DNA of 23,279 bases from Phycisphaerae bacterium (GCA_035542775.1 DATKKX010000078.1:1-23279); one strand, 5' to 3'; positions 766-9,149 are shown, numbered from the stretch's first letter. Notes: a model not told the origin generated them from the sequence alone. Translations and numbers: made by a program.

Positions 766-854
766 TTCGCCGCAGGGGGCGCTCGGGAGGCGGCACCCCA
801 CCGGCGATGCCCTTGCATGGCGGCAGTGATGGAGATCTTTTGAGGCGACGAGGC

Positions 855-2285
855 ATGGCCGAGGCCGGAACAAGTGGGCGGCGGATCGCGATCGGTGGTG
901 ACCATGGCGGCTTCGAGCTGAAAGAAGCTGTCAAGGCCCACCTGCAGAAGAAGGGCTACACCGTCGAGGACTGCGGAACGCACAGCAAAGACGCCGTTGA
1001 TTATCCGGTGTTCGCGCATGCTGTCGCCCGACTGGTCTCCCAGGGCAAGGCTGATCGCGGCATCGTCATCGATCGGGCGGGGATCGGGTCGGCGATGGCC
1101 GCCAACAAGGTGCCCGGCGTACGGGCTGCGTTGTGTTACGATTTATCTTCCGCGCGCAACAGCCGGGAGCACAACAATGCCAACGTGCTCTCGCTGGGGG
1201 CTGGGCTCGTGGGACCCGATCTGGCTTTGCAGATCGTGGACCTGTGGCTGGCCACGGAGTGCAAAGAGGAACGCCACCTCCGGCGCGCCGCGATGATTGA
1301 GCGGGGGCAAGTGACCGCCCAACCCGCGACTGGCGTCGCGACGGCCGGGCATCAGTCCAGTAAGGATGAAGGCATGGATAACCTGACCGAAGCGGACATA
1401 GAGCGAATCGTCCGGAGGATCTGCGAGATCTCCGGCCCGGCCGGGCCGATCCCGTCCGGAGCGGGCATCTGTCCGAACTCAGCGACGTGCGCGTTCTGCC
1501 AGACACGCGGCGAATCCAACCCGGATTCCCTTCGGCAACTCGTCGGCGCCGGCGCGGAGCGTGTGGCCCACGTGCTGGGAGCCGGCTCGCTCCCGGCAGA
1601 CCTCGCCAAATACATCGACCACACGCTGCTCAAGCCCGGCGCAACGGCCGCCCAGATCATCGACCTGTGCAAGGAAGCCCGGCAGTACGGCTTTGCCAGC
1701 GTCTGCGTGAATCCCTCGTTCGCCAAGCTGGCCGCCCAGCAATTGCAGGGCTCCTCGGTGAAGGTCTGCTGCGTGGTCGGGTTCCCCCTCGGCGCGCACA
1801 TGCCGGAGATCAAGGCTTTGGAGGCCCGCCGGGCGATTCGCGACGGGGCCCGCGAGATCGACATGGTCATCAACATCGGCGCGCTCAAAGGCGGCGACGA
1901 TGAGCTGGTCTACCGTGACATTCGCGGCGTAACAGAAGTGTGCATGGACGGCGGGGCCATTTGCAAGGTCATTATTGAGGCGGCGCTGCTCACCGACGAA
2001 GAGAAGGTCCGCGCCTGCCACGCGGCCAAGCGTGCCCGGGCGGATTTCGTGAAGACCTCGACCGGCTTCGGACCCGGCGGCGCCACCGCCCATGACGTCG
2101 CCATCATGGCCGACGCCGTTCGCGATGCGCGGATGGGCGTGAAGGCCGCCGGCGGCATCGCCAGCTATGAGGACGCTCAGAAGATGATCCGTGCCGGCGC
2201 CACCCGATTGGGCGCCAGCGCCGGTGTCCGCATCATAAAGGAAGCCAAGGGCCTTACCGTCTCCGGAGAAAAGCCCAAGTACTAG
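855..2285 (+). CDS. Fusion protein: RpiB/LacAB-type sugar-phosphate isomerase (N-terminal domain) + deoxyribose-phosphate aldolase DeoC (C-terminal domain), with an encapsulation-peptide-like helix in the inter-domain linker
   Basis: N-terminal domain aligns with E. coli RpiB ('[16 protein letters not shown]', '[52 protein letters not shown]'). C-terminal domain has the DeoC hallmarks 'YIDHTLLKP', Schiff-base lysine in 'DFVKTSTGF', and 'GVKAAGGI'. Linker helix '[18 protein letters not shown]' sits at nt ~1380-1433. ATG 855 is preferred (GAGG 9 nt upstream; RpiB homology begins right after). The six-frame ORF starts at 807. Confidence 0.85.
1380..1433 (+). other. Internal encapsulation-peptide-like amphipathic helix in the RpiB–DeoC linker
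   Basis: '[17 protein letters not shown]' closely resembles the N-terminus of the downstream aldehyde dehydrogenase, 'LSDEHVDQIARRVLQRLG'. Both have the D/E-x-x-I/V-x-x-I-V/A-R-R-V/I-L/C-x-x-L/I pattern typical of BMC encapsulation peptides. Pro/Gly/Ser-rich linker on both sides. Confidence 0.55.
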
Positions 2286-2304
2286 ACAGCAAAGGCTGGA
2301 ACTT

Positions 2305-6446: not shown

Positions 6447-6468
6447 CGTCTCGAGGTCACGTTCGACT

Positions 6469-8028
6469 ATGACAGCTCGCGATCTTGTCATTGGCGTAGA
6501 TAGCGGCACACAGTCCACCAAAGTCGTGCTGGTCGACGGCGAAACCGGCGAGGTGGTGGCCGCGGCGAGCGTTCCGCACCGACTGATCGAAGGCCTGCCG
6601 CCCGGGCACCTGGAACAGCGTGCCGAGGACTGGTTCACGGCCTTGGAAGAGGCACTCCAGGCGGCCCTCGCTGATCATTCAGCGGATCCGAAGCATATCC
6701 GTGCCATTGGCGTATCCGGCCAACAGCATGGACTGGTTGCGCTGGACGCCGACGGCCGAGTGATCCGGCCGGCCAAGCTCTGGTGCGACACGTCAACCGC
6801 AAAGCAATGCGAAGAGATCATCGCCCGTGTCGGCGGCCTGGCCCGCTACATAGAGCTCACCGGTAACGGCCTGCCGCCCGGGTTCACAGCATCCAAGCTC
6901 GCCTGGCTGAAAGAGCGTGAGCCGGCGAACTACGCCAGGCTGCGAACCGTATTGCTGCCGCACGACTATCTGAACTACCGGTTGACGGGCCTGTGCCGGA
7001 TGGAGCCCGGGGACGCATCGGGCACGGCGCTGCTCGATGTCCGCCGCCGAACGTGGTGCACCGAAGTCATTGCCGCAATCGACGGCGCGCTCGTCGAAAA
7101 GCTTCCGTCATTGATGGCCAACGATCAGCCTTGCGGAATGCTGAGAAAGGAACTAGCCGACAAATGGGGTCTGCCCGGCGACGTTCTGGTCGCGTCCGGC
7201 GGTGGGGACAACATGATGTCCGCCATCGGAACCGGCAACGTGACCGACGGCGTCGTCACGGTCAGCCTGGGCACGTCGGGCACGATCTTTGCCTATTCAT
7301 CCTCACCGATCGTGGACCCGTTGGGCGAAATCGCGGCGTTTTGTGACAGCACCGGTGCGTGGTTGCCACTGATTTGTACCATGAACGTTACCGTGGCCAC
7401 CGAGCTCACCAAGGCTCTATTCGGTTTGAACAATGAGCAGCTCGACAGCGCCGCCGCCCGTGTGCCAGTCGGCAGCGCTGGTCTCATGTTGCTGCCCTAC
7501 TTTGAAGGTGAACGCACACCCAACGTGCCCAACGGCACGGGCGTATGGTTCGGAGCCAACCGCCGAACCCACACCCCGGCCCACTTTGCGCGGGCAGCGA
7601 TGGAGGGCGCGACATTGGGCCTGAACTACGGCCTGAGACGCTTGCGAGAGTTGGGAGTCGCGGACGAAGAGATCCGCCTGACCGGCGGCGGCGCCAACAG
7701 TGCCGCCTGGCGGCGGATCGCGGCTGACGTATTCAACCGACCGGTCGTCTGCCTCGCCCAGACCGAGGCCGCGGCGTTCGGTGCGGCGATGCAAGCGGCA
7801 TGGTGCTGGCAGAAACAGCGCCTGCCGCAACTGACTATCAGCCGGCTCGCCGAGCGATGGATAGTACCGCTGGAGCAGACGCGAGTGCTCCCCAATCCGC
7901 GAAACGCGGAGCGCTATGCTCGGTTGCAGCGGCTGCACGATCGGCTTTCTATTGCCTTGCGTGAGTCGTTCGATATGCATCGCGAGATCGCGTTGGAGGG
8001 TTTTGAGGGTGGGAGGGCAGGACTATGA
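6469..8028 (+). CDS. xylB: FGGY-family carbohydrate kinase, xylulokinase-like
   Basis: 'LVIGVDSGTQSTKVVLVDGETGEVVAAAS', 'IRAIGVSGQQHGLVALDADGRVIRPAKLWCD', 'GFTASKLAWLKEREPANYARLRTVLLPHDYLNYRLTG', 'GGGDNMMSAIGTG', 'LPYFEGERTP' align along E. coli XylB. ATG 6469 lies 22 nt after BMC-P3. The track ORF start at 6304 is upstream read-through. Confidence 0.85.
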   Translation: MTARDLVIGVDSGTQSTKVVLVDGETGEVVAAASVPHRLIEGLPPGHLEQRAEDWFTALEEALQAALADHSADPKHIRAIGVSGQQHGLVALDADGRVIRPAKLWCDTSTAKQCEEIIARVGGLARYIELTGNGLPPGFTASKLAWLKEREPANYARLRTVLLPHDYLNYRLTGLCRMEPGDASGTALLDVRRRTWCTEVIAAIDGALVEKLPSLMANDQPCGMLRKELADKWGLPGDVLVASGGGDNMMSAIGTGNVTDGVVTVSLGTSGTIFAYSSSPIVDPLGEIAAFCDSTGAWLPLICTMNVTVATELTKALFGLNNEQLDSAAARVPVGSAGLMLLPYFEGERTPNVPNGTGVWFGANRRTHTPAHFARAAMEGATLGLNYGLRRLRELGVADEEIRLTGGGANSAAWRRIAADVFNRPVVCLAQTEAAAFGAAMQAAWCWQKQRLPQLTISRLAERWIVPLEQTRVLPNPRNAERYARLQRLHDRLSIALRESFDMHREIALEGFEGGRAGL

Positions 8029-9149
8029 CGTACGTGCTGTGCGATCTTCGTTATCAGAAAGTCAGGCGAACCCGAGCCGAGTTGCTCAACCATTTGAAGC
8101 ACTTCCGGCTCAAGCCGCGCATTTCCGTGGGCATCTGGTACTTCACGCCCGGCGGCGGACGCTTTCACGATCACTATGTACCGCCCGCCGGCATCGCCGA
8201 GCGCCTGGAGATGGCGGCGGAGCTGGCCCCACTCGGCGTCAGCGGGATTGAGGCCCACTATCCCGCGGAAGTGAACGAAGAGAATCTGCATCTGTACAAG
8301 AAGCTGGAGGAACAGGCCGGCATCCGTCTGGCCGCAATTCCATTCTCCCATTTCTTCGACAAGGATTTCGAGTTCGGCAGCCTGTCCAGCCCGTACCCCG
8401 CGGTCCGCCGCAAAGCCGTCGAGATAGCCATTGGCGGCCTGAAGCTTGTTCGAGACGCCGGAGCTTCGGTGGCGATCTCCTGGCCGGGCATCGACGGCTA
8501 CACCTACTCTTTGGGCACGGTATTCCCGTGGATGTGGGATCGATTCGAAGGAGCGTTGGCGGAGGCCATGGACGAGGTTCCCGGCGTGCGGGTCGCCATC
8601 GAGCCGAAGCCTTATGAGCCGGCCCCAAACAACATCTATCGCACGACTGCCGAGGGCATCCTCGCGGCACAGCGGATCGAGGCCCGGCTGACCAACGTCG
8701 TCAACCGCAAACTCCTTGACGCGGGACACGCCCTCGTCGGCTTGAATCCCGAGATCGGGCACGTCCGCATGGGGGGGGAGGATTGCGCCGCCGTGTTCAG
8801 CGTGGTCGGAGTCGAGGGGCGGCTGGCACATACGCACTGGAACTCGCAGCCACTCGGCAACTACGACCAGGATCTGAATATCGGAGTAGTCGACTGGCAG
8901 CAAGCGGAGGCCCTGCTGTTTGCCCTTTGGCAAATGGGCTACGCCGAGTGGTTTGGAATCGACATCAATCCCGAGCGAATACCGGTGCGCAAGGCGGTCG
9001 AAATCAATGTGACCGTCTTGCGGATTCTGCAGGAGCGGATTGAGGTGCTGCCCGTGGAGAGGATTCTGGATTGCGCTGAGGATCCGGCCGCTCATCGTGG
9101 CGAACTCGAGATGATCCTGGCGGAGACCTTTCGCCGCCGGCCGTTGTGA
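8025..9149 (+). CDS. Xylose-isomerase-family (class I XylA-like TIM barrel) sugar isomerase, divergent
   Basis: 'VAIEPKPYEP' (XylA IEPKPxEP motif), 'GLNPEIGHVRMGG' (NPEVGH metal site) and 'GNYDQDLNIG' (DQD metal ligands) are present. Length 374 aa fits a class I XylA. ATG overlaps the kinase stop (ATGA) with GGGAGGG 7 nt upstream. Confidence 0.7.
   Translation: MTYVLCDLRYQKVRRTRAELLNHLKHFRLKPRISVGIWYFTPGGGRFHDHYVPPAGIAERLEMAAELAPLGVSGIEAHYPAEVNEENLHLYKKLEEQAGIRLAAIPFSHFFDKDFEFGSLSSPYPAVRRKAVEIAIGGLKLVRDAGASVAISWPGIDGYTYSLGTVFPWMWDRFEGALAEAMDEVPGVRVAIEPKPYEPAPNNIYRTTAEGILAAQRIEARLTNVVNRKLLDAGHALVGLNPEIGHVRMGGEDCAAVFSVVGVEGRLAHTHWNSQPLGNYDQDLNIGVVDWQQAEALLFALWQMGYAEWFGIDINPERIPVRKAVEINVTVLRILQERIEVLPVERILDCAEDPAAHRGELEMILAETFRRRPL

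What the first reader, a model, noticed from the sequence alone, without database searches (positions are those of the whole stretch)
807..9149. Compact BMC operon built around a deoxyribose-phosphate aldolase instead of a class II aldolase or diol dehydratase
On one strand, with overlapping or ≤50-nt junctions, sit the RpiB–DeoC fusion, BMC-T, BMC-H, BMC-P, an acylating ALDH, a PduT-like BMC-T, two more BMC-P, xylulokinase and a XylA-like isomerase. DeoC yields acetaldehyde plus glyceraldehyde-3-P. The acylating ALDH is exactly the enzyme a BMC uses to trap that volatile aldehyde as acetyl-CoA. This matches the signature-enzyme logic of the sugar-phosphate-utilising (SPU) BMC class, which is defined by DERA and RpiB homologues. 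The shell complement (one BMC-H, two different BMC-T, three BMC-P) looks like planctomycete/verrucomicrobial loci. Whether this combination and gene order has been described before cannot be decided from sequence alone.
Basis: partly seen in the sequence, partly recalled or inferred. Interest (0 to 1): 0.85.

Follow-up and report, generated by a model that had tools for sequence, protein, structure and literature searches.

The report
Known SPU3 deoxyribose-phosphate microcompartment operon
This is a real, intact gene cluster for a protein-shelled bacterial organelle that breaks down deoxyribose phosphate, but the same gene set in the same order was already catalogued in 2021 as the "SPU3" type, so it is an ordinary new example of a known system.

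Summary
Ten same-strand genes at 807/855–9149 encode an RpiB–DeoC fusion, a CcmP-like BMC-T(dp), a BMC-H, a BMC-P, an acylating aldehyde dehydrogenase, a PduT-like BMC-T(s), two more BMC-P, xylulokinase and a xylose-isomerase-like TIM barrel. The SPU assignment is right, and the novelty question can be answered. The eight-gene core (855–6446) matches the published SPU3 subtype item by item (Sutter 2021 Suppl. Data 2; Dwyer 2024). This includes the RPI–DERA fusion, the Cys66→Asp RPI, the pore-Cys-less T(s) and the absence of PTAC. The same order recurs in at least 25 fetched loci from at least six other phyla. It also fits the locus-tag spacing of the catalogued Verrucomicrobia ADurb.Bin018 locus. 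XylB and the XI-like gene are not part of the system. They are absent from the 85 fetched SPU-type loci on other contigs, occur as a pair without any BMC, and are separated from the BMC in the closest relative. Lineage-specific extras are a conserved upstream catalytic-domain-only tyrosine recombinase, a secreted P1-nuclease/PLC-superfamily protein nearby, and a Cys motif in the fusion linker. Verdict: already known, low interest.

The parts
67..765 (+). Short (232 aa, TTG start) tyrosine recombinase with the catalytic domain only. It is a conserved upstream neighbour of the operon in this Phycisphaerae clade, and whether it belongs to the system is not established.
   Evidence: PF00589 at 58.9 bits. 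It aligns to the C-terminal catalytic domain of XerA 5hxy; R, R, H and Y are present, with His-II replaced by Gln. It sits directly upstream on the same strand in L081, L082/L083, L086 and the 57.7 kb relative. It is absent in L087 and in other phyla. Homologues at 56-58% identity lie beside ACP or TruA genes with no BMC.
855..2285 (+). RPI(RpiB-type)-DERA fusion, the SPU signature enzyme. The N-terminal RPI domain carries Cys66->Asp, an internal amphipathic helix resembles an encapsulation peptide, and the C-terminal DERA barrel is catalytically intact. An alternative start lies at 807.
   Evidence: Searches give the family hits. maps Cys66->Asp73, Thr68->Ala75 and His99->His106. map D102/K167/K201 to D336/K400/K430, invariant in 55 sequences. 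The AF2 model has confident domains at 10-153 and 248-455 and a helix at 179-192. ranks residues 181-195 as the most amphipathic stretch.
2305..2952 (+). BMC-T(dp), CcmP-like: a double-stacking, gated pseudohexamer.
   Evidence: PDB CcmP 4ht5 at E 3.6e-79 and HO BMC-T structures at E 1e-70. The gating Glu69/Arg70 of CcmP correspond to E75/R76 here. NCBIfam CcmP scores 328 bits.
3000..3311 (+). BMC-H, the single hexamer and main shell tile.
   Evidence: PF00936 at 100 bits and EutM at 127 bits. The KAAK and (A)RPH interface motifs were read from the sequence.
3478..3777 (+). BMC-P number 1 of the triplet (pentamer, vertex).
   Evidence: PF03319 at 107 bits. It is only 41% and 37% identical to the other two BMC-P. 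Position-specific orthologues occur in other phyla.
3814..5277 (+). [quoted passage not shown]
   Evidence: PRK15398 at 654 bits against a cut-off of 403, and PF00171. The amphipathic maximum falls on EHVDQIARRVLQRL.
5277..5849 (+). BMC-T(s), PduT-like tandem BMC domains, without the pore cysteine and without a PduS partner.
   Evidence: PDB 3nwg and 3pac (PduT) at E 1e-32 to 1e-29. The PduT 'CPGK' motif is 'HPGK' here. No PduS was found in the window.
5890..6174 (+). BMC-P number 2 of the triplet.
   Evidence: PF03319 at 63 bits. It is 53-77% identical to the BMC-P at the same position in SPU3-order loci of other phyla.
6171..6446 (+). BMC-P number 3 of the triplet. It overlaps the previous gene by 4 nt.
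   Evidence: PF03319 at 81.5 bits; junction measured.
6469..8028 (+). Xylulokinase (XylB). It is a neighbouring module probably co-transcribed here (22-nt gap), not a conserved BMC component.
   Evidence: TIGR01312 at 538 bits. It is absent from the 85 fetched SPU-type loci on other contigs. It pairs with the XI-like gene without any BMC in L091.
8025..9149 (+). Xylose-isomerase-family TIM-barrel sugar isomerase of unproven specificity. It belongs to the same neighbouring module.
   Evidence: PF01261. Class I xylose isomerases in the PDB match at E 1e-19 to 1e-12, with most metal ligands aligned. The family is 65-92% conserved across many phyla.
9356..10390 (+). Secreted zinc phospholipase C / S1-P1 nuclease superfamily protein with a dockerin-like tail. 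It is a neighbour, and any link to the BMC is speculative.
   Evidence: The single sequence is sub-threshold. Of 69 family members, 59 hit PF02265 and 25 hit PF00882. The family profile hits B. cereus PLC and S1, P1 and ENDO2 nucleases at E about 1e-4. W27, H32, H70, H143, D147, H153 and H169 are invariant or nearly so.

Best explanation
Window 855-6446 is an SPU3-subtype sugar-phosphate-utilising bacterial microcompartment operon from a Phycisphaerae (Planctomycetota) MAG.

Inferred mechanism, following the published SPU model:
1. 2-deoxyribose-5-phosphate, a product of DNA/deoxynucleoside breakdown, enters a shell built from one BMC-H, a gated CcmP-like BMC-T(dp), a PduT-like BMC-T(s) without an Fe-S pore, and three paralogous BMC-P.
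2. [quoted passage not shown]
3. The co-encapsulated acylating aldehyde dehydrogenase converts the trapped acetaldehyde to acetyl-CoA plus NADH.
4. The locus has no PTAC, alcohol dehydrogenase or PduS. Acetyl-CoA, CoA, NAD(H) and G3P therefore presumably cross the shell, the larger ones through the gated T(dp) pore.
5. The RPI domain carries the SPU-specific Cys66->Asp change and most likely acts as a packaging or scaffold partner of DERA rather than as an R5P isomerase.
6. Targeting is probably through the amphipathic helix at the N-terminus of the dehydrogenase and the similar helix between the two domains of the fusion.

Shown here: gene content, order, domain identities, catalytic and pore residues, and conservation across genomes. 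Inferred: substrate, encapsulation, metabolite traffic and the scaffold role.

XylB plus the XI-like gene form an adjacent pentose module, not part of the organelle.
For: Family assignments all lie above curated cut-offs. The published SPU3 definition reads: AldDh + pfam02502 + pfam01791, fused in 12 loci with 02502 N-terminal, an internal EP-like sequence, an N-terminal EP on AldDh, one BMC-H, a BMC-P triplet, a CcmP-like T(dp), and a T(s) without PduS and without pore Cys, in phyla including Planctomycetes. Each item was found here.
- Fusion orientation.
- EP-like helices.
- CcmP-like T(dp) with the gating Glu-Arg pair.
- T(s) with His instead of the PduT pore Cys.
- No PduS, PTAC or AlcDH anywhere in the window.

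The RPI Cys66->Asp change, reported for all SPU RPIs, is Asp73 here and invariant in 55 homologues. The DERA catalytic residues D102/K167/K201 correspond to D336/K400/K430 and are invariant. An SPU6 DERA was shown experimentally to cleave dR5P, and its RPI was inactive but formed a complex with DERA.

The same eight-gene order occurs in L082, L083, L086, L087 and the 57.7 kb relative. It also occurs in at least 25 loci of other phyla. The locus tags of catalogued SPU3 ADurb.Bin018 (T(dp) _01116, P _01118, T(s) _01120) give the same spacing.
Against: No experiment exists for any SPU3 locus or for this organism. The substrate and encapsulation are extrapolated from an SPU6 enzyme study and from bioinformatics. 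Cofactor recycling is unexplained without PTAC, AlcDH or PduS. The role of the RPI domain is unknown. The catalogue's SPU3 locus diagram is an image that I could not read, so identity of order with a catalogued locus rests on locus-tag spacing for three shell genes plus my own survey. The shell-protein colour clades (green/grey/orange BMC-P) could not be assigned, because the catalogue's HMMs were not available.
Confidence: 0.9

Rival explanations
1. An extended pentose/xylose microcompartment. XylB and the XI-like isomerase are true members of the operon. Xylose or a related pentose would be isomerised and phosphorylated, then fed through the RPI domain into the shell. This would make it a new SPU variant with a different physiological substrate.
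For: In the window XylB starts 22 nt after the last BMC-P, and the XI-like gene overlaps XylB by 4 nt on the same strand. No terminator-like site was found at the P3/XylB junction. The closest relative also carries the pair within 1.5 kb of the BMC. The catalytic role of RPI in SPU BMCs is unexplained.
Against: None of the 85 fetched SPU-type loci on other contigs has XylB or the XI-like gene within 10 kb, including four Phycisphaerae relatives with 70-81% identical fusion proteins. The pair occurs with no BMC next to amylase genes in L091, and the XI-like gene stands alone in BRC1. In the closest relative a 344-aa gene and gaps of more than 200 nt separate the pair from the BMC. Neither protein has an obvious EP-like extension (not formally tested). 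No enzyme is present that links xylulose-5-P to dR5P. The RPI carries the inactivating Cys66->Asp change.
Confidence: 0.06
2. A PVM-like (planctomycete/verrucomicrobial) fucose/rhamnose microcompartment, or a hybrid of PVM and SPU, as the first reader's remark on the shell complement suggests.
For: The host is a planctomycete (Phycisphaerae). PVM loci are common in that phylum and also have three BMC-P.
Against: The window has no class II aldolase, lactaldehyde reductase, PTAC or acetate kinase. A CcmP-like T(dp) is present, and DERA is described as unique to SPU. The identical shell set and order occurs in Gammaproteobacteria, Acidobacteriota, Chloroflexota, Actinomycetota and Lentisphaerota.
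Confidence: 0.01
3. A decaying or non-functional remnant locus that no longer builds an organelle.
For: One relative (L081, a complete Phycisphaerales genome) has a truncated AldDh (328 aa) and lacks the T(s) and the two distal BMC-P. Loss therefore happens in this clade. The fourth Cys of the linker motif is lost in the window.
Against: All eight ORFs in the window are full length with tight junctions. Catalytic and gating residues are intact. Shell proteins are 86-95% identical to those of the 81%-identity relative (L082), which indicates purifying selection.
Confidence: 0.03

Closest known systems
SPU3 subtype of sugar-phosphate-utilising BMC loci (Sutter et al. 2021, Nat Commun 12:3809, Suppl. 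Data 2; Dwyer, Sutter & Kerfeld 2024, Commun Biol 7:1562). The representative with the RPI-DERA chimera is Verrucomicrobia bacterium ADurb.Bin018 (BWX54).
   Same: The enzyme set matches: AldDh with an N-terminal EP, and an RPI-DERA fusion with RPI at the N-terminus and an internal helix. The shell set matches: 1 BMC-H, 3 BMC-P, a CcmP-like T(dp), and a T(s) without PduS or pore Cys. Also shared are the absence of PTAC, the RPI Cys66->Asp change, the gene order (Tdp, H, P, Ald, Ts spacing) and occurrence in Planctomycetes.
   Different: Nothing differs in the core. Three lineage-specific neighbours are not mentioned in the catalogue text: an upstream short tyrosine recombinase, a downstream XylB plus XI-like pair, and a P1-nuclease/PLC-superfamily secreted protein. 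In this clade the fourth Cys of the linker C-x4/5-C-x2-C-x2-C motif is lost.
SPU6 BMC of Chloroflexi bacterium GWB2_54_36, the only SPU enzymes characterised biochemically (Dwyer 2024).
   Same: DERA has the same catalytic triad, the RPI carries Asp in place of Cys66, and DERA and RPI are physically associated (a complex there, a fusion here). Both have a BMC-P triplet, a single BMC-H and a T(dp).
   Different: In SPU6, RPI and DERA are separate genes, each with its own N-terminal EP. The AldDh EP is C-terminal, there is no T(s), the T(dp) belongs to a different clade, and the gene order differs (fusion/adjacent > P > Ald > H > Tdp > P > P in the Anaerolineae loci). A GntR regulator is present.
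Haliangium ochraceum (HO) BMC
   Same: It has closely related shell proteins. The HO T(dp) structures 5v74/5v76 match the window T(dp) at E 1e-70. It also has a BMC-P triplet and a related AldDh clade.
   Different: The HO main locus lacks DERA and RPI, and its function is unknown.
PVM BMC of Planctomycetes/Verrucomicrobia (fucose/rhamnose)
   Same: The host phylum is the same, it has three BMC-P, and an aldolase generates the aldehyde.
   Different: PVM uses a class II aldolase that yields lactaldehyde. It carries PTAC, acetate kinase and lactaldehyde reductase, and has no T(dp). None of these enzymes is present here.

Membership tests
Bacterial microcompartment locus (any type) | Genes for both PF00936 (BMC-H/T) and PF03319 (BMC-P) shell proteins, clustered together | tested here: met
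   Three PF00936 proteins and three PF03319 proteins lie within 4.2 kb, all above the gathering score.
SPU BMC (all subtypes) | DeoC-type aldolase (pfam01791, DERA) in the locus with catalytic residues equivalent to D102/K167/K201 | tested here: met
   TIGR00126 at 274 bits. They are invariant in 55 homologues.
SPU BMC (all subtypes) | Acylating aldehyde dehydrogenase (pfam00171) in the locus | tested here: met
   PRK15398 at 654 bits and PF00171 at 130 bits.
SPU BMC (all subtypes) | RpiB-type pfam02502 protein with the catalytic Cys66 replaced by Asp | tested here: met
   A gapless alignment to E. coli RpiB 1nn4 places Asp73 at the Cys66 position, with His99 conserved. Asp73 is invariant in 55 sequences. 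The rule is stated.
SPU BMC (all subtypes) | Triplet of divergent BMC-P paralogues | tested here: met
   The three BMC-P share only 32-41% identity pairwise. Each has position-specific orthologues in other phyla. The colour clades (green/grey/orange) could not be assigned.
SPU3 subtype | pfam02502 and pfam01791 adjacent or fused, with 02502 N-terminal and an internal EP-like helix | tested here: met
   The AF2 helix spans 179-192 between the domains. It is the most amphipathic stretch in the protein.
SPU3 subtype | BMC-T(dp) of the CcmP-like clade with conserved gating residues | tested here: met
   CcmP 4ht5 at E 3.6e-79. The ERLYG motif with Glu/Arg is conserved.
SPU3 subtype | BMC-T(s) without an adjacent PduS homologue and without a pore cysteine | tested here: met
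   HPGK stands in place of the PduT CPGK motif. No PduS/RnfC-like gene is in the window.
SPU3 subtype | N-terminal encapsulation peptide on AldDh | tested here: inconclusive
   An amphipathic helix at residues 7-20 followed by a Pro-rich linker fits the pattern. The catalogue's EP HMMs were not run, and packaging cannot be tested in silico.
SPU3 subtype | Clustering with SPU3 loci under the Sutter 2021 locus-scoring HMM set | not testable with these tools
   The catalogue's shell and enzyme HMMs and its clustering pipeline are not available here. As a surrogate I used a gene-order survey and the locus-tag spacing of a catalogued SPU3 locus.
PVM BMC | Class II aldolase (pfam00596) signature enzyme with PTAC and lactaldehyde reductase | tested here: not met
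   None of these families was found in any ORF of the window.
Xylose isomerase XylA (equivalog) | Score above the curated cut-off of a XylA model | tested here: not met
   TIGR02631 gives 68 bits against a cut-off of 447. It is a distant relative of class I XI with most metal ligands aligned. It works like a metal-dependent sugar isomerase, with specificity unknown.

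The most novel reading that the evidence does not exclude
In this Phycisphaerae lineage the SPU3 operon may sit in a small scavenging island whose neighbours are functionally tied to it. One neighbour is a secreted Zn-dependent S1/P1-nuclease-like enzyme with a dockerin-like tail (9356-10390). 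It could release nucleotides from environmental DNA, which would be the first genomic-context link between an SPU microcompartment and extracellular DNA breakdown. The other is the conserved, catalytic-domain-only tyrosine recombinase immediately upstream (67-765), which could act in control of the operon. The XylB/XI-like pair, apparently co-transcribed, would add pentose use to the same regulon.
Probability: 0.12. Interest if true: 0.4.

Novelty: already known. Interest (0 to 1): 0.15.

Why it matters
As a discovery it matters little. [quoted passage not shown] The SPU3 subtype with the RPI-DERA chimera has been described twice. The window adds one more Phycisphaerae example. It also shows that the eight-gene order is strikingly rigid across at least seven phyla. 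The side observations are modest leads on open questions in the SPU field: where the deoxyribose phosphate comes from, what the inactive RPI and the DERA extension do, and how the loci are regulated. These leads are the nuclease-like secreted neighbour, the recombinase-like upstream gene conserved in one clade, and a frequently four-cysteine motif in the DERA N-terminal extension. None of them is established here.

Tried and rejected
1. Invertible-promoter (Fim-like) switch driven by the upstream recombinase. Inverted-repeat searches around the gene in the window, L081, L082 and L086 gave only short, non-conserved pairs. The intergenic gap to the operon is 9-89 nt. Homologues 56-58% identical sit beside ACP or TruA genes with no BMC. 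There is no support for a switch.
2. XylB/XI-like as BMC cargo. Rejected on comparative context.
3. Nuclease-like ORF as a conserved SPU partner. tblastn against all 93 fetched loci found it only on the window's own contig.
4. The catalogue supplements were searched for integrase, recombinase, xylulokinase, pfam00370 and pfam01261. There were no mentions. The catalogue's locus diagrams are images and could not be read.
5. The promoter/terminator scan was uninformative. It found one promoter-like site on the wrong strand, and terminator-like sites at about twice the shuffled expectation, none at operon boundaries. Sigma-70 consensus scanning is of doubtful use in a planctomycete anyway.
6. The genome-contig scan with exact peptide patterns returned no Phycisphaerae loci. 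Those were obtained through the look-up of encoding contigs instead.
7. The supplements of Dwyer 2024 (Table S1, Dataset S1) are not held. The list of 20 fusion-bearing SPU3 loci could not be checked for this MAG.

Full report
**Observation**

On the + strand between 807/855 and 9149 lie ten genes:
- an RpiB-DeoC fusion (PF02502 183 bits, residues 27-164; PF01791 70 bits, residues 267-474; TIGR00126 deoC 274 bits against a cut-off of 117)
- a 215-aa shell protein that barely passes PF00936 (25.3 against 24.5) but scores 328 bits on the NCBIfam CcmP model
- a BMC-H (100 bits)
- a BMC-P (107 bits; the real ORF is 3433/3478-3777, not the overlapping 3408-3830 ORF)
- an acylating aldehyde dehydrogenase (PRK15398, 654 bits)
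- a tandem-BMC PduT-like protein
- two further BMC-P
- XylB (TIGR01312, 538 bits)
- a PF01261 TIM barrel that reaches only 68 bits on a XylA model with a cut-off of 447

Junctions run from -4 to 47 nt, except 166 nt between BMC-H and the first BMC-P. Public gene calls on identical contigs start the fusion at 855 (476 aa) and XylB at 6469.

The window is a complete 23,279-nt contig of a "MAG TPA: Phycisphaerae bacterium". The rest of it encodes unrelated genes: Band_7, an ABC-2 exporter pair, an M16 peptidase, a fatty-acid desaturase and a lactate permease. It holds no PTAC, alcohol dehydrogenase, PduS or class II aldolase.

**What it is**

Sutter et al. 2021 (PMC8217296) split the SPU class into seven subtypes. 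Their Supplementary Data 2 describes SPU3 as follows:
- EPs on the N-terminus of AldDh and internally between the two fused domains
- occurrence in phyla that include Planctomycetes and Verrucomicrobia

Dwyer, Sutter & Kerfeld 2024 (PMC11585597) raise the count to 20 fusion-bearing SPU3 loci. They also note that SPU types lacking PTAC typically carry a T(dp), and report that Cys66 of RpiB is replaced by Asp in all SPU RPIs.

**Tests of each defining feature**

- RPI domain. It aligns without gaps to E. coli RpiB (1nn4). Asp73 falls at the Cys66 position, Ala75 at Thr68, and His99 is retained as His106. Asp73 is invariant in an alignment of 55 homologues.
- DERA domain. D102, K167 and K201 of E. 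coli DERA align to D336, K400 and K430, all invariant.
- BMC-T(dp). It matches Synechococcus CcmP at E 3.6e-79 and keeps the gating Glu-Arg pair (ERLYG).
- BMC-T(s). It matches PduT structures at E 1e-27 to 1e-32 but has HPGK where PduT has the cluster-binding CPGK.
- Encapsulation-peptide-like helices. The most amphipathic 14-mers of AldDh and of the fusion are residues 7-20 (EHVDQIARRVLQRL) and 181-195 ([15 protein letters not shown]). These two stretches resemble each other.
- Structure. An AlphaFold2 model built on 55 sequences (mean pLDDT 80.8) gives confident RPI (10-153) and DERA (248-455) domains. They are joined by a disordered stretch containing one helix (179-192), as published for the ADurb.Bin018 chimera.
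- BMC-P triplet. The three proteins share only 32-41% identity with each other. Each is 45-77% identical to the BMC-P at the same position in loci of other phyla, as expected of an old triplet.

**Gene order**

I fetched 80 loci from representative genomes with the fusion as query, and further loci through exact-protein look-ups. I then mapped all eleven window proteins onto them by tblastn.

The order fusion > Tdp > H > P > AldDh > Ts > P > P is identical in the Phycisphaerae relatives (L082, L083, L086, L087; 70-81% identical fusion) and in the 57.7 kb contig of the closest relative. It is also identical in at least 25 loci from Woeseiaceae, Lentisphaerae, Thermoanaerobaculia, Acidimicrobiia, several Chloroflexota families and others. 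Partial loci from Neomarinimicrobiota and Calditrichia are consistent with it.

A second order without a T(s) (fusion or adjacent genes > P > Ald > H > Tdp > P > P) characterises the Anaerolineae loci and corresponds to SPU6.

The catalogue's diagram is an image. However, the phyloxml files give locus tags for the catalogued SPU3 of Verrucomicrobia ADurb.Bin018. T(dp) is BWX54_01116, a BMC-P is _01118 and T(s) is _01120. That is exactly the spacing in the window.

**Xylulokinase and the XI-like gene**

These two are not part of the system.
- Neither occurs within 10 kb of the fusion in any of the 85 fetched SPU-type loci on other contigs. Downstream neighbours differ in every Phycisphaerae relative: an amidohydrolase, an AraC regulator, a transposase.
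- The XI-like protein belongs to a very conserved family (65-92% identity) found in Phycisphaerae, Sumerlaeota, Elusimicrobiota, Spirochaetota and Asgard archaea.
- In L091 it is paired with XylB beside amylase genes with no BMC. In BRC1 it stands alone.
- In the closest relative (XI-like 92% identical) the pair follows the BMC, but only after a 344-aa gene and two gaps of more than 200 nt.

The 22-nt P3/XylB junction in the window therefore reflects a recent local rearrangement that probably causes co-transcription. It does not mark a conserved functional unit. The XI-like protein is a distant relative of class I xylose isomerases with most metal ligands aligned. Its substrate is unproven.

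**How it most likely works**

What is shown is the gene set, the residues and the conservation. The rest is inferred from the SPU model and from the one biochemical study, in which an SPU6 DERA cleaved dR5P and its RPI was inactive on R5P but formed a 1:1 complex with DERA.

1. dR5P enters the shell.
2. The DERA domain yields G3P and acetaldehyde.
3. AldDh makes acetyl-CoA and NADH.
4. With no PTAC, AlcDH or PduS in the locus, acetyl-CoA/CoA and NAD(H) presumably exchange through the gated T(dp).
5. The Asp66-type RPI domain most likely serves in packaging.

I put 0.9 on the statement that this is an SPU3 locus working by the published SPU scheme. The scheme itself remains largely untested for SPU3.

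**Side observations**

(a) A 232-aa tyrosine recombinase with the catalytic domain only (67-765, TTG start) lies directly upstream. Its identity rests on PF00589 and a match to the XerA catalytic domain. Arg, Arg, His and Tyr are present and His-II is Gln. It holds this position on the same strand in the window, L081, L082/L083, L086 and the closest relative. Matching contig lengths between the two homologue tables suggest about 13 distinct contigs carry both genes. It is missing in L087 and outside Phycisphaerae. Homologues at 56-58% identity lie next to ACP or TruA genes with no BMC, and no conserved inverted repeats flank it. Inherited synteny is the simplest reading, and a regulatory role is not excluded.

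(b) ORF 9356-10390 has a signal-peptide-like N-terminus and no significant Pfam hit on its own. A search of 1.84 billion representatives found 1,097 relatives at E<=1e-10. In an alignment of 69 of them, 59 hit PF02265 (S1/P1 nuclease) and 25 hit PF00882 (zinc phospholipase C). Many carry T9SS, PEP-CTERM or dockerin tails. The profile hits B. cereus PLC and S1, P1 and ENDO2 nucleases at E about 1e-4. The invariant or near-invariant W27, H32, H70, H143-x3-D147-x5-H153 and H169-x3-E173 residues reproduce the trinuclear zinc ligand pattern of that superfamily. A secreted nuclease next to a DNA-scavenging organelle would be suggestive. However, the activity could equally be phospholipase, and the gene is not found near any other fetched SPU locus.

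(c) The disordered stretch after the internal helix of the fusion carries a C-x4/5-C-x2-C-x2-C motif. It is complete in 70 of 121 homologues and reduced to three Cys in the window and its nearest relatives. It is not mentioned by Dwyer 2024. AlphaFold gives the region low confidence.

**Verdict**

Interest is low (0.15). The most novel reading not excluded is a lineage-specific DNA/pentose scavenging island with a recombinase-like control gene. I give it a probability of about 0.12.

Noticed in passing
window 67-765 (+); also L081 9235-9882, L082 9293-9991, L086 9288-9986: A 232-aa tyrosine recombinase with the catalytic domain only (Xer-like, His-II replaced by Gln) sits immediately upstream of the SPU3 operon on the same strand. 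This holds in the window and in several Phycisphaerae relatives whose other flanks all differ. More distant family members (56-58% id) lie next to ACP or TruA genes without any BMC, and no conserved inverted repeats were found around it.
   Followed up: partly
window 9356-10390 (+): This 344-aa protein has a signal-peptide-like N-terminus, a dockerin-like C-terminus and no significant Pfam hit on its own. It belongs to a large family in the zinc phospholipase C / S1-P1 nuclease superfamily. Of 69 relatives, 59 hit PF02265, and the W, H and D zinc ligand pattern is conserved. In the closest relative a gene of the same length lies between the last BMC-P and XylB. It is a possible secreted nuclease beside a DNA-scavenging microcompartment, but it is not found near other SPU loci.
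   Followed up: partly
window 1452-1500 (residues about 200-215 of the fusion protein starting at 855): The disordered linker after the internal EP-like helix carries a cysteine motif, C-x4/5-C-x2-C-x2-C. It is complete in 70 of 121 homologues and reduced to three Cys (fourth is Arg) in the window. It is not mentioned in the SPU literature that I could read. It may be a metal or Fe-S site in the DERA N-terminal extension.
   Followed up: partly
window 8025-9149 (+): The 374-aa xylose-isomerase-like TIM barrel belongs to a very strongly conserved family (65-92% identity) spanning Phycisphaerae, Sumerlaeota, Elusimicrobiota, Spirochaetota, Gemmatimonadota and Asgard archaea. It is only a distant relative of characterised class I xylose isomerases (68 bits on the XylA model, cut-off 447). 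Asp245 of the metal site appears to be His. Its substrate is unknown.
   Followed up: partly
L081 12948-15015 (Phycisphaerales genome CP070691.1): This relative carries a decayed version of the locus. The AldDh is truncated to 328 aa and followed by an Rce1-like gene. The BMC-T(s) and the two distal BMC-P are missing within 10 kb. SPU3 loci are therefore being lost in part of this clade.
   Followed up: no
L082 8360-9163 and L083 7071-7874: A triosephosphate isomerase gene lies just upstream of the recombinase-like gene in one relative. This fits the published note that TPI accompanies some SPU loci. The window contig ends before this position, so its presence here is unknown.
   Followed up: no
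window 10875-22854 (mostly - strand): The remainder of the contig encodes a 700-aa Band_7/SPFH protein, an FGase-like protein, an ABC-2 exporter pair, a 933-aa M16 peptidase, a fatty-acid desaturase (+ strand) and an L-lactate permease. Band_7, FGase-like and M16 are syntenic in the closest relative. None has an evident link to the BMC.
   Followed up: no
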